Part shown: positions 31,013 through 64,000 of the stretch, in pieces
Position numbering within the stretch: position 1 is the stretch's first letter
Layout of the letters: each line of letters opens with the position of its first letter
DNA from: a virus
Strand: one strand, 5' to 3'
Virus record (IMG/VR): IMGVR_UViG_3300036826_000261
Location: 1 to 64,000 of that record
Length of the DNA: 64,000 bases
The notes under the pieces: model-generated
Seen by the model: only the letters and a program-made list of their open reading frames with translations
Told to the model about the DNA's origin: nothing
Database searches by the model: none
Program-made: the position numbers and the translations under genes

Positions 31013-31120
31013 GTGATGCCGTCATTTGCGACGGCGATCACCTTGAGCCAAGCCTGCCAATACCCTGCTTGGCCTCGCCGGGGGCACGCCGTGACACGTC
31101 CCGCCAAACCATGCCTAAGA
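31013..31120 (-). ncRNA. Solo GGY-NN guide RNA cassette 1
   Basis: Minus strand: TAGGCAT-GGTTT-GGCGG-GACGT-GTCAC-GGCGT-GCCCC(C)-GGCGA-GGCCA-AGCAG-GGTAT(T)-GGCAGGC..., ending in a hairpin at 31041-31013. Confidence 0.8.
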
Positions 31121-38063: not shown

Positions 38064-38070
38064 AAAGCAT

Positions 38071-38257
38071 GAAGGGTGACCCGTTCCCAGATCACCCTTC
38101 ACTTGTGCCGACCATGACGAGACCGGCCCGGCCAGACGGCGCCAAGGCCAAACCCCGACAAACCACGCCTGCCAAGTCTGGCTTTGCTTGGCCAAATCTT
38201 ACCGCGCCAGACCTTGTCGCGCCGAACCGCGCCTGTCCTCGCCTGCCATGCCTAAGA
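38071..38257 (-). ncRNA. Solo GGY-NN guide RNA cassette 2 (two units)
   Basis: Minus strand: TAGGCATGGCA, 14 pentamers, GGCA, about 8 pentamers; ends in hairpin GAAGGGTGA/TCACCCTTC (38071-38100) followed by ATGCTTTT. Confidence 0.85.
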
Positions 38258-38310: not shown

Positions 38311-40806
38311 ATGGCGACTGAACAAGAGCAACTGGAACTTGTCGTCACGCTTGATGATCAAGAAGCGCTGGCGAAGCTTGCCAATCTGAAAAATCAACTG
38401 GCCAACATGGGGTCAGGGTCTTCGGGGTTTGGCAAGGTCGGTGAGAGTGTCGAGCGTGCAACCAAAGGCGTCAAGGATTTAAGCTTCGAGATCGCCAAGG
38501 GCACGTTCTGGGGCAACATGTTTGCCGAGGCAGGCAAGGAAGTTCTCAAGTTCGGCGAAAAAGTTGTCGAGAGCGCGACGGACATCCAAGGGTTATCGAA
38601 ATCGATCGTCGATCTTTCGACGACCGCTTCGCGCATGGGAACAAGTTTAGGTCAACTGCGCTCCAATCTGCGCGTGTTCGATGAAATGGGAGTCGATGCC
38701 GGCAAGGCCACTGCGACATTGCAGGGTTTGGCCGATTCGATGGGCGATCTGCAAACGATTAACGGTCGGCTGCGCGGTCAATTGCGCAGTGGCGGATTTC
38801 TCGAACTACAGGAGATGCTGAAGGTTCTGCAAGACGCTGACGAGGCGAAGACGGTCGAAGAGTTCGGCGAGACCATGCGCAAGGCCGCCGAGAAGGTGCG
38901 GGAGCGTTGGACCGATCTCGCCGGTCCTGAAAAAGGCGCAGAGATGCAGCGGCGGTTTCTGGCGTTGCTCAAGGCGCCGGAGCTGGATCAGCTCGAAGGC
39001 AAACTCGGCAAAATAAACAAACAACAAGATGAGTTTTCCAAAAGACAGGAAACCATTCTGAAGCAATTCTACGCGGCTAGTCGCGGTATGGCGGAAGGTC
39101 TTGAGCGCATCGGGCAAGCGATCGGCACGGTGGTTGCAGCGATGAATTTGCCGTGGATGCAGACATTGGCCGACACGTTCAAAGCTGGTGCGGAATACGC
39201 CGAACGCATTGCGCTGGCGCTGACCAAGTTGAATGTCACACCAACAGAGGCAAAAAGCGCGATCCAAGACACGTTCGGCAAGTTTGGTCTAGGTGTGCCG
39301 GCGCCGAGTTTCAACGAGCGTTTCGGGACATGGCCCGGTGCGACCGCGGCGCCGATGAAATTCATCGGCGGCAGTGTGCAGGGCGGTGAGTGGGACAGCC
39401 GCAATTTCACGGCCAGCGGCAACGATTTTTGGCGCAATCTGCAGGGTCGCGGCGACGTCGATATCGAAGACCGGCGCAATCTCGAAGATAACACCGATCA
39501 GACCAAACAGCTCACTGAGCAGATGCGCCAGCTCAATGATGCATTGACCAATCCGATGGCGACGGGACGTGGCGGCGGCTTGGCTGCGATGGGCGCAGCG
39601 CTCGGTCTCGGCGATCTCGGCGGTGGCGGTGGCGGCGGCGGTGGCGGCGGCGGCGGCGGTCGTGCGCGACCGTGGGCGCTACGCAGTCCGAGTGATGCGC
39701 CTTACGGCAATGATGCTGGACCCGGCACCGGCAAGGGTGCCGGTGAATCCCCTGCGGCCATGGGTGCCCCACCGGGTCCCGGCGGTCCTGGTGGCATTAC
39801 GGCGCCGGCCGGGACGCCGATCATGCGCGGCGGCACTACAACGGTGACGACGGCGAGCGGGCACAAGTTTCAGGTTGCTGCCGCCTACGCGAAAAATTTC
39901 CAGGGCTTCATCAACGATTACGAAGCGGCTGGCGGTGTCATCGGTCCCAATTCCGGCACGCTTGGCAGTCGGCCGAGCAATGCATCTGGACATCCGATCG
40001 GTACGGCGTTCGATCTCAATCAAGTCGCGCGCAACGTTCGCAAGGGTGGCGTATCGCTGCCGCAGGAGCAAGAGGAAGCGCTGGCGAAAAAATGGGGTCT
40101 TGTCTCGGGCAGCCAGTGGCGCAATCCCGATGCCGGACATTTCGGCATTCGCAGCGCCAAGGCAGCGCGCGACGCGTTGATCGCCAATGGCGTGCCGGAG
40201 GGTGAAGCCAACAAGATCGTCGGCGGTGCCGCCAGCGGCGGGGCGGTCGGCGGCAGTGCCGGTGATGCCGCCAAGGTTAGGGGCTCATGGTTCGGCAACG
40301 CACCGGGTTGGCATGACCCATCCGAGCCGGTGGATAGTCCGAAGAGCAATCGGCCCGGCATTGCGTTGCCGTCCAAAGCGACGCTTGGTCAGATGTTCGA
40401 GGTGACGACGCCGGACGGTCGCAAATTTATGTTGCCGCAAACCGATGTCGGACCGGCAGCGCGCACCGGGCGCGGCGTTGATATCACGGCGGCAGCGGCG
40501 GCGAGGATGGGTTATACCGCGAAGAATTTTCCGACCGATGAACGCTTCATGGTGCAGCCGGCGTCCAAAAGCATGGACGCAGCGATTGCCCGTGGCGCGG
40601 AGCTGGATAAGGAGCGCGAAACGACGGTGACCGGCAAAGGCCATTTGAAAGTCGATATCAATGGCCCACCCGGCACGCGAGCGAGCGCGACGGGCGAAGG
40701 GCTGCTGAAAGACACCTCGATTTCGCGTGCGACGCAGATGGCGCCGGCCAGCTCCGGGCCGACCAATCCGGCCGGCGACACGCCGTACGTGTTCGGCGGG
40801 ACTTAA
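38311..40806 (+). CDS. Tape measure protein with C-terminal M15-like peptidase and DPBB/RlpA-like domains
   Basis: Helical N-terminal half; S.H..G.AFDLN...WGL.SG..W...D..HF; TDVGP...TGR.VDIT..AA; position after the chaperone. Confidence 0.8.
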   Translation: MATEQEQLELVVTLDDQEALAKLANLKNQLANMGSGSSGFGKVGESVERATKGVKDLSFEIAKGTFWGNMFAEAGKEVLKFGEKVVESATDIQGLSKSIVDLSTTASRMGTSLGQLRSNLRVFDEMGVDAGKATATLQGLADSMGDLQTINGRLRGQLRSGGFLELQEMLKVLQDADEAKTVEEFGETMRKAAEKVRERWTDLAGPEKGAEMQRRFLALLKAPELDQLEGKLGKINKQQDEFSKRQETILKQFYAASRGMAEGLERIGQAIGTVVAAMNLPWMQTLADTFKAGAEYAERIALALTKLNVTPTEAKSAIQDTFGKFGLGVPAPSFNERFGTWPGATAAPMKFIGGSVQGGEWDSRNFTASGNDFWRNLQGRGDVDIEDRRNLEDNTDQTKQLTEQMRQLNDALTNPMATGRGGGLAAMGAALGLGDLGGGGGGGGGGGGGGRARPWALRSPSDAPYGNDAGPGTGKGAGESPAAMGAPPGPGGPGGITAPAGTPIMRGGTTTVTTASGHKFQVAAAYAKNFQGFINDYEAAGGVIGPNSGTLGSRPSNASGHPIGTAFDLNQVARNVRKGGVSLPQEQEEALAKKWGLVSGSQWRNPDAGHFGIRSAKAARDALIANGVPEGEANKIVGGAASGGAVGGSAGDAAKVRGSWFGNAPGWHDPSEPVDSPKSNRPGIALPSKATLGQMFEVTTPDGRKFMLPQTDVGPAARTGRGVDITAAAAARMGYTAKNFPTDERFMVQPASKSMDAAIARGAELDKERETTVTGKGHLKVDINGPPGTRASATGEGLLKDTSISRATQMAPASSGPTNPAGDTPYVFGGT

Positions 40807-60443: not shown

Positions 60444-61178
60444 ATGGCGACCATGTCGAAAAAGGCAATCATCACCTGGGAGACCGACGACGGCAGCGGG
60501 CCGCCGGTCGGCATCTGGCCGGAGCCGGGCTATCCGGCGCACCCGATTGCGCCGGGCGGACCGCCGCCGGGCGTGTGGCCGGGACCGGGCTATCCGGCGC
60601 ACCCGATCGTGATTCCGCCGGACAAGCCCGGTGAGCCGCCGACCGTGATCTGGCCGGGGCCGGGCTATCCGGCGCATCCGATCGCGCCGGGCGGACCACC
60701 GCCGGGTTATTGGGGTGGCGTGGCGCCGCCGTTGCCGACACATCCGATCGCACCGGGTGGACCGCCGCCGGGCATCTGGCCGGGGCCGGGCGTGCCGACG
60801 CCGCCGATCCATTATCCGCCGATCATCTGGCCGCAGCCGCCGGAGGGCGGACCGCCGATCGCGATCGATCCGGGACATCCCGAACATCCGATCGTAATTC
60901 CGACACCGCCCGGCACGGTGTGGCCGCCGGATGCATCTATCGAGCATCCGATCGTGCTGCCGCTGCCGCCGGAAATCTGGCCGAAGCCGGGGGTGCCGAC
61001 GCATCCGATCGTGATTCCGCCGGAGCAGCCACCGGAGAAGCCGCAACTGATCACGTGGTATGCCGGCTGGTCGGACAAGACCGGTTGGGTCGTGGTCGGC
61101 GTGCCGAACGTGCCGCATCCGACGCCGTCGAAGGCCGGCGGACCGGGCGGACCGGGCGGGCCGAAGAAAGGGCCATGA
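60444..61178 (+). CDS. Proline-rich repeat protein
   Basis: AGGAG RBS; repeated WPGPGYPAHPI and P.HPIV.P units. Confidence 0.8.
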   Translation: MATMSKKAIITWETDDGSGPPVGIWPEPGYPAHPIAPGGPPPGVWPGPGYPAHPIVIPPDKPGEPPTVIWPGPGYPAHPIAPGGPPPGYWGGVAPPLPTHPIAPGGPPPGIWPGPGVPTPPIHYPPIIWPQPPEGGPPIAIDPGHPEHPIVIPTPPGTVWPPDASIEHPIVLPLPPEIWPKPGVPTHPIVIPPEQPPEKPQLITWYAGWSDKTGWVVVGVPNVPHPTPSKAGGPGGPGGPKKGP

Positions 61179-61220
61179 CGTCGCCGTAAACAACCGTTTC
61201 AACCTTCCTCCCTAGACTTG

Positions 61221-61257
61221 AGCCGGGTGGCCCTCCAAGCGCCCGGCTTTCTTTTTT
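61221..61257 (+). terminator. Rho-independent terminator ending the late/lysis operon
   Basis: AGCCGGG...CCCGGCT stem followed by TTCTTTTTT. Confidence 0.85.
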
Positions 61258-61362
61258 GCCTGCACGATGTTTTTGCCGGCGAAAAATTTTCTTGACTTTT
61301 CGCCAAACCCGTCGCTCGCTTCCCGGATTCGTAAAATCAAAATGCTAAAGGGAGAGAAGCAA

Positions 61363-62241
61363 ATGGCGAAAAAGGCACCCGTCAGTGAAATCATCGAAAT
61401 CCAAGCTATCGAAATGGCGTCGCTGGATTTCCATGTGGTCGGCACCAGCCCGTTCATCATGCATCGCTTCAGTCAGAAGGCGTGGCAGGAATTGCTGCTG
61501 CCGTCGATCCGCGAAAACCGCGCTAGTCTCGAACAGAAGCTCAAGCATGATCCGTATGCAGAATTTCGTGGCGCGTTCTATCGCAACAGCAATCCGCGCG
61601 CCAAGACGGCGTACCATATTCCAAACGGCGCGTTTCACGGCGCGATCGCCAGCGCCGCGCTCGACATGCCGGGTGCCAAGAAGGCGCAGATCGAGCGGTT
61701 GACCAAGATCACCAGCGTCAACATCGAACTGTATGGCATCCCGAAAATCTTTTGCAGCATGGTGCGTAACAGCGACATCTCGCGCACGCCAGATGTGCGC
61801 ACCCGGCCGATCTTCCCGCGCTGGGCGTGCACGGTTTCGGTGCGCTACGCGAAGAACGCGTTGACGGCCAAAGCCGTCGCCAATCTGTTCGGCGCGGCGG
61901 GCGAGATCATCGGCATCGGTGATTGGCGCGGTCAGAAGGGCGGACCGTTCGGCGCGTTCCGCACCAACGTGTCGGTGAACGATAAAGAGTTCAAGAGCAT
62001 CTTGAAGGAAGGCCGCGTCGCGCAATTGAAAGCTTACGACAAACCGTTGTTCTACGATGAAGACACGGAAGAAATTTTAACGTGGTTCGCCACCGAGGTG
62101 CGCCGCCGTGAGTTGGAAGGCAAGATGCGCAGCGATAACGTCAAGGAGTTTCGCGTTATCACCGAGCGCGGCAAGGAGCGCGGCAACGGCGAGTTGGTGA
62201 GCCTTGACGACAAGCGGCGGACCCGTCGAAAGGCCGCGTGA
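61363..62241 (+). CDS. Stand-alone RAMP/Cas7-like RNA-binding effector protein
   Basis: First-strand motif VVGTSPFIMH, helix motif IP..AF.GAI..AA, RPIFPRW and C-terminal Gly-rich loop AGEIIGIGDWRGQKGGPFG.F; GGGAG RBS; adjacent to the GGY-NN array. Confidence 0.8.
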   Translation: MAKKAPVSEIIEIQAIEMASLDFHVVGTSPFIMHRFSQKAWQELLLPSIRENRASLEQKLKHDPYAEFRGAFYRNSNPRAKTAYHIPNGAFHGAIASAALDMPGAKKAQIERLTKITSVNIELYGIPKIFCSMVRNSDISRTPDVRTRPIFPRWACTVSVRYAKNALTAKAVANLFGAAGEIIGIGDWRGQKGGPFGAFRTNVSVNDKEFKSILKEGRVAQLKAYDKPLFYDEDTEEILTWFATEVRRRELEGKMRSDNVKEFRVITERGKERGNGELVSLDDKRRTRRKAA

Positions 62242-62735
62242 TGGCGAAAGCCACCAAACACGACCGCATCAAAGCGGCGTTGGAAGCGATCAGGCGCTCG
62301 CATCGCGGGCGCTTGACGGCGCGGGCCGTGGTCGAGGCGGCCAAAAATCCTAGGCACCCGTTGCACAGTGAATTTGAATGGAACAACCAGAAAGCAGCGG
62401 ATCAGCAACGCTTGGAGCGTGCGCGCGAACTAATCAGATACGTCACGGTCGTGGTCGTTGATGCAACGCGTAAAGTCGAAACACGATTTTATGCGCACGA
62501 TCCGCGAACGCCGCATCGTGAAGGCTATGTCAGCATCTTGGAGATGAACCGCCGCGATGCTGAACAAGATGTGGTCAACGCTATCGCGATCTGTCAATCG
62601 ACGATCGATCGCGCGCTCAGCAAAGCGGAATTTCTCAGCGCGAAGCATCGTGGTGTTTCACGATTGTTGAAAAATGCAGTTGCTACCCTTGCCGCCGCGC
62701 ATGATCTGCTCGAAGGCTCGGCGGCAGCGGCGTGA
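62238..62735 (+). CDS. Partner protein of the RAMP-like gene
   Basis: LT...VV.AA.....PLH..FEW....AA...RL..AR.LIR motif; GTGA overlap with the RAMP gene. Confidence 0.8.
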   Translation: MMAKATKHDRIKAALEAIRRSHRGRLTARAVVEAAKNPRHPLHSEFEWNNQKAADQQRLERARELIRYVTVVVVDATRKVETRFYAHDPRTPHREGYVSILEMNRRDAEQDVVNAIAICQSTIDRALSKAEFLSAKHRGVSRLLKNAVATLAAAHDLLEGSAAAA

Positions 62736-62740
62736 AGTCA

Positions 62741-62961
62741 TAGGCATGGCAGGCTAGGCAAGGTGCGGCCCGGCCGGAGTAGGTTCGGTGCGGCAAGGCA
62801 GGCATGGCCCGGGAGACGCGGTGAAGCGTGTCCGTGATCTGGTAGCGTCGGGTAAGGCGGCGTTGGATGGGGTGAGGCGAGGCAGGCTTGGTCAGGTCTG
62901 ACGAGACTGGGCGCGGTAGGTTTTGGCGCGGTACGGCAAGGCGTGATGCGGTAAGGCAGGC
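62741..62961 (+). ncRNA. GGY-NN guide array, block 1 (three units)
   Basis: TAGGCATGGCAGGC leader; GGCA delimiters at 62748, 62797, 62881 and 62955; 5-nt periodicity. Confidence 0.85.
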
Positions 62962-63219
62962 ATGGCCAGAAACACAGCGGATAAGGTTCTCGAAAACAAG
63001 TTGCGGCTGATCGCCAAACGGCGGGGTTTGTTTCTTTCGAAATCCCGTCGTCGCGATCCGTTTGCGCTCGACTTTGGTTATGAGTTGAGAGACGCGCAAC
63101 AGCACGTCATCGAAACAGCGTGCAGTCTTACTCGAATCGAAAACTTGTTAGCTCTCGGTCGGACGGGGCGGAAACGTTTAACAGTCGAAGGATGGCGTCA
63201 CATCATCCTTGGTAAGTAG
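62962..63219 (+). CDS. Small basic protein embedded in the guide array
   Basis: KV.EN.LR..A.R.GL.L.KSRRRDP.A.D.G motif; non-repetitive sequence between the two array blocks. Confidence 0.7.
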   Translation: MARNTADKVLENKLRLIAKRRGLFLSKSRRRDPFALDFGYELRDAQQHVIETACSLTRIENLLALGRTGRKRLTVEGWRHIILGK

Positions 63220-64000
63220 GCATGGCAGGCGTGGCCGGGCCGGGTTGTCCCCGGTGTGGCAGAGCATGGCAGCGCAGGGTTGACATGGCAGGGCAGGCAG
63301 GGTCCGTCGTGGTCGCGCGGGATTGGGCGGGGCAAGGCACGGCACGATGCTGGTCTGGCGAGGCGTGGCAGGCATGGCTGGATCAGGCGTGACGAAGCTT
63401 GGTGTAGCTAGGCCGGGTGCAGTGTAGGCATGGCGAGGCAGGCGCGGCGGGACAAGGTCCGATATGGCGTGGCGCGGTCTGGTTCGGTCTGGCCGGGTTT
63501 GGCAGGCAAGGTGCGTCGAGGCCAAACATGGTGTGACAAGGTACGGCGCGGCCTGATCTGGGCTCGACTGGGCAGGCGCGGTGGGTTCTGGCTCGACATG
63601 GTTAGGCGAGGCCCGGTGATGCCCGGCATGTTGAAGTGCGTCCTGGCAGGCGTGGCGGGGGTGCGTGCGAGGCGGGACCGGGCAAGGTCGGGCACGTTAT
63701 ATGGTCTGGCTGGGCACGGCTTGGCGGGTCACGGCAAGGCACGGCCGGCAAGGTTTGTCCGGAACCGGTTTGGCTTGGCGAGATGCGATTAGGCGAGGCG
63801 AAGCGAGGCCGGCTAAGCGTGACTTGGTCGGGTAGACGTGGCCGGGCACGGTAGCGGCGTGGATCGGCCGGCGACGCTAGGCTTGTCGTCGATCGGCATG
63901 ACATGGCGCGGCACGGCGAGGCGTGGTTCGGCCGGCGCGATTAGGTGTGGTCGGAATCGGCATGGCTCGGTGTCGCGTGGTCTGGCGTGGCTCGGCTGGG
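63217..64000 (+). ncRNA. GGY-NN guide array, block 2 (at least 11 units, truncated by the window end)
   Basis: Leader TAGGCATGGCAGGC; GGCA/GGCC delimiters at 63224, 63292, 63367, 63437, 63501, 63571, 63645, 63743, 63807, 63866 and 63930; many units are exactly 4+5n nt. Confidence 0.9.

What the first reader, a model, noticed from the sequence alone, without database searches (positions are those of the whole stretch)
61363..64000. Phage RNA-guided system: lone RAMP/Cas7-like gene, partner gene and GGY-NN pentamer guide array
Seen: after the late-operon terminator come a 292-aa protein with RAMP hallmarks (GTSP first strand, IP..AF.GAI helix, C-terminal Gly-rich loop) and a coupled 165-aa gene. 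About 1 kb of non-coding DNA with strict 5-nt periodicity follows. It divides into at least 14 units, each a 4-nt GGCA/GGCC delimiter followed by 9-18 pentamers with a near-constant GGY triplet and a variable NN. Example, 63437-63500: GGCA GGCGC GGCGG GACAA GGTCC GATAT GGCGT GGCGC GGTCT GGTTC GGTCT GGCCG GGTTT. There are no CRISPR direct repeats and no cas1/cas2 or nuclease in this locus. Established: Cas7/RAMP proteins polymerise along guide RNAs with a fixed nucleotide period. Inference: each protomer holds a GGY and presents the NN for pairing, so repeat and spacer are interleaved. I recall a recent report of such an architecture (VIPR) but could not verify it, so novelty needs a literature check.
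Basis: partly seen in the sequence, partly recalled or inferred. Interest (0 to 1): 0.98.

Follow-up and report, generated by a model that had tools for sequence, protein, structure and literature searches.

The report
Phage VIPR system with staggered guide array
This soil phage carries a VIPR system, a recently described virus-borne relative of CRISPR in which a single Cas7-like protein reads guide RNAs made of GGY-NN five-base repeats, so the locus is a real and large example of a known kind, not a new one.

Summary
A 292-aa gene (61363-62241) and an overlapping 164/165-aa gene (62241-62735) are followed by a same-strand GGYNN pentamer array. The array runs past the window end to contig position 65169: 392 pentamers and 31 four-base register breaks, 28 of them GGCA or GGCC.

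The interpretation also holds, but it is in print. Two April 2026 bioRxiv preprints and one of October 2026 describe VIPR: a Vipr RAMP protein, a vap gene, and vrRNAs of alternating GGY/NN. They also describe 'staggered' arrays with 1-nt overlaps, which fits the 4-nt delimiter here.

- **Protein:** a family profile hits the solved SUSP1 Vipr protein (E 1.1e-7). Four GGY-contact residues are conserved, and the predicted fold matches Cas7-type RAMPs.
- **Co-occurrence:** 80 of 80 IMG/VR loci with a homologue carry a same-strand pentamer tract beside it.
- **Targeting:** under the published 1-nt-skip rule, the first guide matches a related phage's vipr gene 18/18, in codon register. The phage's own copy matches 16/18. 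Targets of the other guides were not found.
- **Not shown:** expression, processing and binding.

Verdict: new member of a known kind. The scan's earlier notes on this genome had flagged the same stretch.

The parts
61221..61257 (+). Hairpin plus T-run that ends the upstream late (tail fibre, endolysin) genes
   Evidence: Read directly: arms 61221-61229 and 61240-61248, then TTTCTTTTTT. Below-threshold Rfam suhB/mmgR match at 61192-61263 (32.8 bits against a gathering score of 41). Upstream genes are endolysins and tail fibres.
61363..62241 (+). vipr: 292-aa Vipr (RAMP, Cas7-like) protein; core about aa 16-203, conserved helical extension about aa 205-252, disordered basic tail 257-292
   Evidence: phmmer against PDB: 36pp_D 'SUSP1 Vipr protein', E 0.0034; profile of 36 homologues, E 1.1e-7. 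R148, D187, W188 and R189 are invariant and align with SUSP1 R138, D177, W178 and R179. AF2 mean pLDDT 79.2. Foldseek top hits are Cas7-type RAMPs, best 6xn3_F at E 1.7e-5. PHROG 4652, E 5.4e-19.
62241..62735 (+). vap-like accessory gene, 164 aa, start overlapping the vipr stop
   Evidence: tblastn homologue next to vipr in 76 of 84 related loci. PHROG 15946, E 2.5e-14. AF2 pLDDT 92.9: N-terminal helices plus a small sheet, then a C-terminal helical hairpin. Only weak PadR/winged-helix resemblance, E 0.17 or worse.
62741..62969 (+). vrRNA array, block 1: TAGGCATGGCA leader, then GGYNN units closed by GGCA
   Evidence: Phase tracking.
62752..62796 (+). Guide 1 (9 pentamers), predicted to target the vipr gene of related phages
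   Evidence: 1-nt-skip scan: 18/18 on the vipr of L006, 17/18 on L013 and L014, 16/18 on the phage's own vipr. No hit of 15 or more under skip 0 or 2. Shuffled guides give 0-4 hits. An IMG/VR-wide exact scan refound the L006 contig.
61555..61580 (-). Near-match of guide 1 in the phage's own vipr gene (16 of 18 bases; codons YAEFRGAF)
   Evidence: 1 of 200 shuffled guides reaches 16 in the own genome.
62962..63219 (+). Non-periodic insert that splits the array; holds an orphan 85-aa ORF and a promoter-like site (63178-63206) 10 nt before the second leader
   Evidence: No homologue in 84 related loci and none but itself in the 5.8-billion-protein search. No Pfam, PHROG, NCBIfam or PADLOC match. 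TTAACA-17-CATCAT.
63217..64000 (+). vrRNA array, block 2; continues to contig position 65169 (L107 1-1169)
   Evidence: No Rfam family and no hammerhead in it.
38108..38255 (-). Solo vrRNA cassette with the same TTAGGCATGGCA leader, upstream TTGACA-17-TACCTA, downstream hairpin terminator 38102-38069
   Evidence: Its 14-pentamer guide matches the neighbouring tape-measure gene at 38359-38399 in 21 of 28 bases (4 of 200 shuffles reach this) and a relative's similar peptide stretch (DNASAGLANIRTQ against QEALAKLANLKNQL) in 21 of 28; positional homology not established.
31046..31118 (-). Second solo vrRNA cassette (TTAGGCATGG leader, upstream TTGACA-17-TAGCTG)
   Evidence: Its target was not tested here.

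Best explanation
The locus is a VIPR (Viral Interference Programmable Repeat) system of a roughly 73-kb soil phage: vipr, a vap-like accessory gene, and a long 'staggered' vrRNA array.

Inferred by homology with the studied SUSP1 system:
- The array is transcribed rightward. The sources would be the vipr-vap operon, a second promoter-like site at 63178-63206, and, for the two solo cassettes, their own promoters.
- Vipr protomers polymerise along the RNA, one per pentamer. The thumb arginine (R148) and the G-loop GDWR (187-189) hold each GGY, and the NN pair is presented.
- The NN pairs read double-stranded DNA with one base skipped between pairs. In a coding target that is codon positions 1-2, with the wobble base ignored.
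- Binding silences transcription of the target.

My inference for this array: the 4-nt unit GGCA/GGCC shortens one repeat by a base. This ends one filament register and starts the next, so about 30 guides of roughly 9-14 pentamers lie head to tail with no tail or ribozyme between them.

At least one guide is aimed at the vipr gene of rival relatives, while the phage's own copy differs at two of the read bases. The system most likely serves competition between related phages.

Shown here: gene homology, fold, conserved contact residues, array anatomy, co-occurrence, and one in-silico target. Not shown: transcription, processing, RNP formation, DNA binding and silencing.
For: 1. Sequence link to a solved Vipr. 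PDB 36pp_D 'SUSP1 Vipr protein' is the only significant PDB hit, at E 0.0034 with one sequence and 1.1e-7 with the profile.
2. SUSP1 residues R138, D177, W178 and R179 contact G1, G2 and Y3, and alanine at D177 or R138 abolishes silencing (section 5 of 10.64898/2026.04.26.720927). They align with R148, D187, W188 and R189, which are invariant in 36 of 36 family members.
3. The fold is Cas7-type RAMP.
4. GGYNN array with hypervariable NN.
5. 80 of 80 IMG/VR homologue loci hold at least 100 bases of same-strand tract within -1000 to +3500 of vipr. Tract density is 12.5% near vipr and 0.18% elsewhere. GGCA is the commonest register break in those loci (560 cases), and 70 of 80 loci have a GGCA or GGCC break. 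4 of 4 GenBank phage loci (Gordonia Pipp and ODay, Cy-LDV1, LESphi2) also have tracts.
6. vap-like neighbour in 76 of 84 loci.
7. Viral setting: endolysins and tail fibres upstream; the contig is an IMG/VR virus record, CheckV 98% complete.
8. Guide 1 follows the published 1-nt-skip rule. It matches 18/18 in a relative's vipr with the skipped bases on wobble positions. All nine hits of 15/18 or more lie at the same vipr site. There are none under skip 0 or 2.
9. The preprints describe staggered arrays with 1-nt overlap, vipr-targeting guides and solo vrRNAs.
Against: - No expression data: no RNA run holds this DNA, so transcription and the processing sites are untested.
- Only 1 of 27 main-array guides of 7 or more pentamers has a clear predicted target. 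Four others, scanned as exact 10-NN cores over IMG/VR, gave 0 hits each. Scans of about 1.2 Mb of related phage DNA gave only marginal hits.
- Strict GGY holds in only 69% of pentamers, and 13 six-base breaks are unexplained.
- The Vap fold could not be tied to the DNA-binding folds the preprint names.
- This Vipr is 90 aa longer than SUSP1 Vipr, and the sequence alignment to it covers only about 50 residues.
- The VIPR type (I-VII) could not be assigned, because the supplementary data are closed.
Confidence: 0.92

Rival explanations
1. A degenerate or orphan CRISPR-Cas remnant: a lone Cas7 left from a class 1 system, with the G-rich tract unrelated to it.
For: The best structural matches are Csm3/Cmr4/Cas7 chains of type III, VII and I systems.
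Against: - There are no direct repeats of CRISPR type.
- No PADLOC hit for the three locus proteins and the first two ORFs downstream of the array, the only ones scanned.
- The tract co-occurs with the gene in 80 of 80 loci.
- The only PDB sequence hit is a Vipr, not a Cas protein.
Confidence: 0.02
2. The pentamer tract acts as DNA, not RNA: for example a protein-binding array, a G-rich structure (G-quadruplex), a packaging site or a recombination hotspot. The RAMP-like protein would then bind nucleic acid for another purpose.
For: - The tract is 45% G on one strand.
- Contigs from other soil runs show rearranged or shortened versions of the array. A loose end at 62893 continues with letters that I matched by eye to about 65060, as expected of recombinogenic repeats.
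Against: - The strand of the tract follows the strand of vipr: 47,634 tract bases near vipr on its strand, against 1,675 on the opposite strand in all 80 loci.
- Solo cassettes sit between a promoter-like site and a hairpin terminator.
- The NN code of guide 1 reads a coding sequence in codon register.
- In SUSP1 the homologous tracts are shown to be RNAs bound by Vipr (Results of 10.64898/2026.04.26.720920).
Confidence: 0.03
3. It is a VIPR system, but its main job is regulation of the phage's own genes, for example timed shut-off of vipr and of tail genes. The near-matches would be tolerated as real targets.
For: - Guide 1 matches the phage's own vipr in 16 of 18 bases (1 of 200 shuffles reach this).
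- The solo guide at 38243 matches the adjacent tape-measure gene in 21 of 28 bases (4 of 200 shuffles reach this).
- Both solo cassettes lie beside structural genes.
Against: - The perfect match of guide 1 is in a rival's gene, not the phage's own.
- The preprints report that guides score lower on self than on relatives and that no self hits pass 80% NN match.
- 25 of 29 guides show no own-genome match beyond shuffled controls. A fifth guide's match (64867; 25 of 200 shuffles) and the 64315 match are out of codon register.
Confidence: 0.08

Closest known systems
VIPR systems (Vipr + vap + vrRNA), type II of Escherichia phage SUSP1 and a Pseudomonas fulva prophage (bioRxiv 10.64898/2026.04.26.720920 and .720927)
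   Same: - Single RAMP protein with thumb and G-loop.
- Conserved GGY-contact residues.
- Adjacent small accessory gene.
- Same-strand GGY/NN pentamer RNAs of about 9-16 repeats.
- Phage-borne; no cas genes.
- A guide that follows the 1-nt-skip rule on a coding target.
   Different: - No conserved 3' tail or pseudoknot after each guide; guides abut through a 4-nt GGCA/GGCC unit.
- About 30 delimited units over 2.2 kb, against four vrRNAs in SUSP1.
- This Vipr has 292 aa against 202, with a conserved C-terminal helical extension (invariant Q221, A224, P228, D232, W241, R249).
- Sequence similarity is confined to the thumb-to-G-loop part.
- The Vap was not matched to any named vap class.
'Staggered vrRNA arrays' of other VIPR types (legend of fig. 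S18, same preprint; legend only was readable)
   Same: - Individual vrRNAs start where the previous one ends, with a 1-nt overlap. This is what a GGCA unit followed by GG amounts to if read as GGCAG sharing its last G.
- There is no ribozyme between guides.
   Different: I could not see the figure or the data files. Whether the published example uses GGCA, belongs to this Vipr clade, or has six-base breaks, leaders or inserts is unknown.
Solo vrRNAs and vipr-targeting guides (bioRxiv 10.64898/2026.10.15.759431, section 8 read)
   Same: - Stand-alone guide cassettes away from the vipr locus.
- Guides aimed at relatives' vipr genes, with lower self-match scores.
   Different: - In the preprint the solo guides are mostly on satellites or on VIPR-null phages of Enterobacteriaceae and carry a tail.
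- Here they sit in a VIPR-positive soil phage, next to structural genes, with the TTAGGCATGGCA leader of the main array.
Class 1 CRISPR backbone filaments (Cas7, Csm3, Cmr4)
   Same: RRM core, thumb and glycine-rich loop. The protein polymerises on a guide with a fixed nucleotide period and flips bases out at each step (fold match; mechanism from established knowledge and the preprints).
   Different: - Period 5, not 6.
- The conserved and variable parts are interleaved within every repeat, instead of repeat plus spacer.
- No Cas5, Cas6, large subunit, Cas1 or Cas2.
- No CRISPR array.

Membership tests
VIPR | Vipr protein: RAMP homologous to characterised Vipr proteins | tested here: met
   PDB 36pp_D SUSP1 Vipr, E 0.0034; profile E 1.1e-7; Cas7-type fold.
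VIPR | Thumb Arg and G-loop D-W-R that hold the GGY bases | tested here: met
   R148, D187, W188 and R189 align with SUSP1 R138, D177, W178 and R179 and are invariant in 36 of 36 sequences. H17, E71 and M72 lie outside the aligned stretch and were not mapped.
VIPR | Candidate vrRNAs: at least four YNNGG (GGYNN) tandem repeats beside vipr, on its strand | tested here: met
   392 pentamers; 25 runs of four or more strict GGYNN, all in the array.
VIPR | Conserved GGY, hypervariable NN | tested here: met
   Position frequencies; all 16 dinucleotides are used at NN.
VIPR | vap accessory gene next to vipr | tested here: met
   Overlapping start; homologue beside vipr in 76 of 84 loci.
VIPR | Vap belongs to one of the named classes vap1-6 (DNA-binding, nuclease or helicase) | tested here: inconclusive
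   Only weak PadR/winged-helix rows (E 0.17 or worse). VIA-align matched only the C-terminal helical hairpin. The N-terminal domain was not searched alone.
VIPR | Minimal locus without cas genes or a CRISPR array; viral genome | tested here: met
   PADLOC none for the 5 proteins scanned (the three locus proteins and the first two ORFs downstream of the array); no CRISPR-type repeats; endolysins and tail fibres upstream; virus record, CheckV 98%.
VIPR | Targets follow the 1-nt-skip rule | tested here: met
   For guide 1 only: 18/18 in a relative's vipr in codon register; skip 0 and 2 give no hit of 15 or more. For the other 26 main-array guides no target was found.
VIPR | vrRNAs are expressed, processed and bound by Vipr; the complex binds DNA and silences | not testable with these tools
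   No RNA run holds the stretch. This needs bench work.
VIPR, staggered-array architecture | Successive vrRNAs overlap by 1 nt, with no tail or ribozyme between them | tested here: met
   31 four-base units, 28 of them GGCA/GGCC, each followed directly by GG. No Rfam hammerhead or other family in the array. The comparison rests on the legend of fig. S18 alone.
VIPR type II (SUSP1-like) | Invariable 3' tail with conserved structure after each repeat tract | tested here: not met
   Units abut through 4-nt breaks. No conserved stretch longer than the TAGGCATGGCA leader recurs.
CRISPR-Cas class 1 | Repeat-spacer array and multi-subunit cas operon | tested here: not met
   Only the Cas7-like fold is shared.

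The most novel reading that the evidence does not exclude
This soil-phage clade may be a VIPR lineage whose biology goes beyond what the preprints show. In this reading:
- Guides are delimited purely by a one-base-short repeat (GGCA) that acts as a ruler stop for the Vipr filament, with no tail, ribozyme or Cas6-like nuclease.
- Arrays grow to 30 or more guides by tandem duplication and point divergence. Examples: guides at 64673 and 64797 share their first four NN pairs, and those at 64206 and 64271 share a CC-CG-A(A/C)-CG core.
- Promoter-terminator solo cassettes placed next to the phage's own, recoded copy of a target gene add further guides.
- The conserved C-terminal extension of Vipr adds a function that is absent from SUSP1.

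If so, the array is a heritable, evolvable record of rival phages, a non-Cas1 route to 'memory'.
Probability: 0.2. Interest if true: 0.6.

Novelty: new member of a known kind. Interest (0 to 1): 0.4.

Why it matters
VIPR has been in print only since April 2026 and has been studied mainly in one E. coli phage. This locus adds several things.

- The same machinery is present in a 98%-complete soil phage, with one of the longer arrays one could hope to dissect.
- The GGCA-delimited, tail-less architecture is the rule in this Vipr clade: 560 GGCA breaks, and 70 of 80 loci with a GGCA or GGCC break.
- Standard repeat finders and gene callers miss or mis-annotate such arrays. TRF reports only fragments here, and in Gordonia phage Pipp the tract is annotated as a protein gene.
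- It supplies a ready test pair for self versus non-self discrimination by two read bases: guide 1 with the rival vipr site at 18/18 and the own site at 16/18.

It does not open a new field.

Tried and rejected
- **Pfam and NCBIfam** gave nothing for the three ORFs. PADLOC gave nothing.
- **blastn of the locus against GenBank phages:** no match.
- **Genome-contig scan with the Vipr profile:** one weak hit, in a Dehalococcoidia MAG. No host could be named.
- **Exact IMG/VR scans** with the central ten NN pairs of guides 63441, 63934, 64867 and 65114 gave 0 hits each. The method works, because the guide-1 control refound its target. Two further guide-1 hits (L109 and L110, identical) fall in another ORF out of codon register and are taken as chance.
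- **Wider local scans** of own genome plus L001-L085, then L086-L106. Apart from guide 1, only marginal excesses over shuffles: 62836 at 16/18 against a maximum of 15; 63747 at 19/24 against 18; solo 38243 at 21/28 against 20.
- **Own-genome near-matches** of guides 64315, 64867, 64126 and 63703 are out of frame and were dropped.
- **Earlier notes that guides decode a JAB/MPN HTHP motif or an integrase motif.** I reproduced the decoding of two of them by hand only. Their DNA cores had no exact IMG/VR hit, and the phage itself has no Prok-JAB match. Left open.
- **Vipr with Vap complex prediction:** no verdict, score 0.00.
- **Vap structure:** Foldseek found nothing at E <= 1e-3. VIA-align wide matched only the helical hairpin. 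The Atlas gave viral hypothetical clusters only.
- **Sequencing runs:** no RNA holder is listed. Contigs of four soil runs show strain differences. 17 listed differences fall in the array: 9 at NN, 3 at Y, 5 at position 2, 0 at position 1. This is too few to test constraint. One run shows a 'skips 250' joint with a side of 21, which is too weak to use.
- **Promoter scan** found no consensus site before vipr or the solo cassettes. The TTGACA-17-TAnnTn sites were read by eye.
- **Supplementary files** of the preprints are closed. I therefore could not check the VIPR type of this clade, whether it is among the 667 published systems, or the content of fig. S18.


Full report
**What is there.** The window is bases 1-64000 of a single 72,692-base contig. 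The contig is an IMG/VR virus record, linear, with CheckV completeness 98%. Upstream of the finding lie tail-fibre genes and two endolysins, then a hairpin with a T-run at 61221-61257 (read).

Next come a 292-aa ORF (61363-62241) and a 164-aa ORF whose ATG overlaps the first gene's stop (62241-62735). From 62741 the + strand becomes 42-46% G with a strict five-base period. G autocorrelation at lag 5 is 0.39-0.40, against 0.03 or less in coding DNA. Period-5 power reaches 24.4, against a window median of 0.63.

The tract does not stop at the window's end. It runs to 65169.

**Anatomy of the array.** A phase-tracking parse gives 392 complete pentamers with consensus G(90%) G(81%, A 13%) Y(94%) N N. 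Strict GGY holds in 272 of 392.

There are 50 register breaks:
- 31 are four-base units (20 GGCA, 8 GGCC, 3 other), each followed at once by GG;
- 13 are six-base units;
- 6 are other.

The stretches between four-base units measure 14-144 nt, with a median of 64. Sixteen of 29 are 4 mod 5 and nine are 0 mod 5; the latter carry one six-base unit.

The array is split at 62962-63219 by a non-periodic insert. It holds an 85-aa ORF with no relative anywhere. It also holds a promoter-like TTAACA-17-CATCAT that ends 10 nt before the second TAGGCATGGCA leader.

The same leader opens block 1 (62741) and two minus-strand solo cassettes at 38255-38108 and 31118-31046. Each solo cassette is preceded by TTGACA, a 17-nt spacer and a TAnnTn hexamer, 8-9 nt upstream of the leader (read; the scan's stricter rule did not list them). 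The first cassette is followed by a 15-bp hairpin terminator.

TRF and the direct-repeat finder see only fragments and 60-80% look-alikes. There is no CRISPR-type repeat. Rfam finds nothing in the array and no hammerhead.

**The protein.** Pfam and NCBIfam are blank. PHROG 4652, of unknown function, matches at E 5.4e-19.

Against PDB sequences the only significant hit is 36pp_D, 'SUSP1 Vipr protein'. It scores E 0.0034 with the single sequence and E 1.1e-7 with a profile of 36 homologues, over the thumb-to-G-loop part.

The VIPR structure preprint (section 5 read) reports that in SUSP1 Vipr G1 is held by H17 and D177, G2 by R138 and W178, and Y3 by R179 among others. Alanine at D177 or R138 abolishes silencing. 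In the printed alignment these four residues fall on R148, D187, W188 and R189 of the window's protein, and all four are invariant in the family alignment.

The AlphaFold model (mean pLDDT 79.2) gave 22 Foldseek matches at E <= 1e-3. The listed ones are Csm3, Cmr4/Cmr6, type VII Cas7, Cas7-11/gRAMP, type III-D effector and type I-A Cascade chains; the best is 6xn3_F at E 1.7e-5.

The protein is 90 residues longer than SUSP1 Vipr. Residues of about 205-252 form conserved helices, and 257-292 are disordered.

**The partner.** The second gene has homologues beside vipr in 76 of 84 related loci. It also has homologues in Gordonia phages and Cy-LDV1 next to their vipr homologues.

Its model is confident (pLDDT 92.9): three helices, a small sheet and a long helical hairpin. 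Fold searches gave only weak PadR/winged-helix rows or hairpin look-alikes. I call it vap-like by position and conserved synteny, not by class.

**Co-occurrence.** The family has 436 members at E <= 1e-3 in the large protein collection. In IMG/VR, 91 stretches encode a relative, and the best 80 were fetched.
- All 80 carry at least 100 bases of same-strand pentamer tract within -1000 to +3500 of vipr.
- Tract density is 12.5% there and 0.18% in the rest of the loci.
- The opposite strand holds 1,675 tract bases in all.
- GGCA is by far the commonest register break (560), and 70 of 80 loci have a GGCA or GGCC break.
- Four of four GenBank phage loci also have tracts. In Gordonia phage Pipp the tract is annotated as a protein gene.

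The 185,579-species genome collection gave one weak hit. This clade is therefore seen almost only in viral contigs, and the host stays unknown. The DNA occurs in soil metagenome runs of six studies, two of them possible sources.

**What is known.** A literature search found three bioRxiv preprints.
- *10.64898/2026.04.26.720920* (Results, methods sections 18 and 20, and figure legends read) defines VIPR. It comprises a phage-borne ancestral RAMP (Vipr), a vap gene, and vrRNAs of 9-16 YNNGG repeats whose NN pairs read double-stranded DNA with one skipped base, causing transcriptional silencing. It lists seven types. Among the array architectures it names 'staggered arrays with overlapping vrRNAs', in which vrRNAs derive 'from 1 nt overlapping positions'. 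It also names ribozyme-interspersed arrays.
- *10.64898/2026.04.26.720927* (abstract and section 5 read) gives the filament structure.
- *10.64898/2026.10.15.759431* (abstract and section 8 read) describes solo vrRNAs and guides aimed at relatives' vipr genes, with lower self-match.

The window's locus meets every sequence-level criterion of VIPR. It matches the staggered architecture and not the tailed type II one (see the membership test).

**Targets.** I took the 27 main-array and 2 solo guides with 7 or more in-phase pentamers. I scanned about 0.9 Mb (own contig plus L001-L085) under skip lengths 0-3, with 30 shuffles of NN order as control.

Guide 1 (62752-62796) gave 18/18 under skip 1, against a shuffle maximum of 15. 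All nine sites with 15/18 or more lie at one place in vipr genes, encoding xAE(F/Y)RGxx, with the skipped base on the wobble position. The scores are:
- L006: 18
- L013 and L014: 17
- own gene, L005 and L037: 16
- three others: 15

Skip 0 and skip 2 gave none, and shuffles gave 0-4. An exact IMG/VR-wide scan refound the L006 contig. It also found two identical out-of-register hits that I take as chance.

In the own genome no guide exceeds 16/18. The solo guide at 38243 matches the neighbouring tape-measure gene 21/28 (4 of 200 shuffles reach this). It also matches a relative's similar peptide stretch (DNASAGLANIRTQ against QEALAKLANLKNQL) 21/28 against a shuffle maximum of 20; I did not establish that the two sites are positionally homologous. 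This is suggestive only.

For the remaining guides nothing convincing was found:
- four exact 10-NN scans of IMG/VR returned 0;
- 21 further related loci gave marginal values.

Several guides are diverged duplicates of one another. This suggests growth of the array by duplication.

**Mechanism, with its status.**
- *Shown here:* homology, fold, conserved GGY-contact residues, array grammar, strand-linked co-occurrence, and one codon-register target in a rival's vipr with two mismatches in the phage's own copy.
- *Inferred from SUSP1:* one protomer per pentamer, NN presentation, 1-nt-skip DNA reading, silencing.
- *My inference:* the four-base unit ends one filament register and begins the next, so it defines guide boundaries without a tail or ribozyme. 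The six-base units and the short 2-5-pentamer segments before some GGCA units are unexplained.
- *Untested:* expression, since no RNA run is listed (reported only as tried). The Vipr-Vap complex job gave no verdict.

**Verdict.** Novelty is that of a new member of a known kind, with some locus features whose novelty I cannot judge because the supplements are closed:
- array size;
- leader motif;
- promoter-bearing insert;
- solo cassettes in a VIPR-positive phage;
- Vipr C-terminal extension.

The scan's own earlier notes on this genome had already flagged this stretch and several guide-target ideas. I tested the guide-1 idea and it holds. I tested the tape-measure idea partly. The JAB and integrase ideas remain open.

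Noticed in passing
window 38108-38255 (- strand), terminator 38069-38102: Solo vrRNA cassette with the TTAGGCATGGCA leader, upstream TTGACA-17-TACCTA and a 15-bp hairpin terminator. Its 14-pentamer guide matches the adjacent tape-measure gene in 21 of 28 bases.
   Followed up: partly
window 31046-31118 (- strand): Second solo cassette (TTAGGCATGG leader, upstream TTGACA-17-TAGCTG). Its target was not examined here.
   Followed up: partly
window 62962-63219: An orphan 85-aa ORF sits inside the array, with no relative in 84 related loci or in the large protein collection. Its 3' end carries a promoter-like site aimed at the second array block. It may be a spacer with a promoter and not a gene.
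   Followed up: partly
window 62893, joined to about contig 65060 (L107 about 1060): In contigs of two soil runs (X3, X4) the sequence after 62893 continues with letters that I matched by eye to about 65060. This is as expected of a strain variant lacking about 2.2 kb of the array. In run X5 the unit at 63437-63521 is replaced or duplicated.
   Followed up: no
window 61192-61263: Below-threshold Rfam match to the alphaproteobacterial sRNA family suhB/mmgR (32.8 bits against a gathering score of 41) over the terminator hairpin before vipr. Probably just the hairpin; at most a faint host hint.
   Followed up: no
L001 4614-4883 (Gordonia phage Pipp gene 43): A GenBank-annotated 'hypothetical protein' CDS lies on the GGYNN tract next to the Vipr homologue (gene 42). 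It is likely a mis-called ORF over a vrRNA array.
   Followed up: no
L107 648-692 / 772-816 and 210-257 / 270-317 (contig 64648-64816, 64210-64317): Pairs of guides are 78-79% identical and share runs of NN pairs, as if arrays grow by tandem duplication and divergence.
   Followed up: partly
window 60444-61178: A 244-aa proline-rich ORF with repeated PGYPAHPI(A/V)PGGPPPG motifs lies just before the terminator. It has no PHROG match.
   Followed up: no
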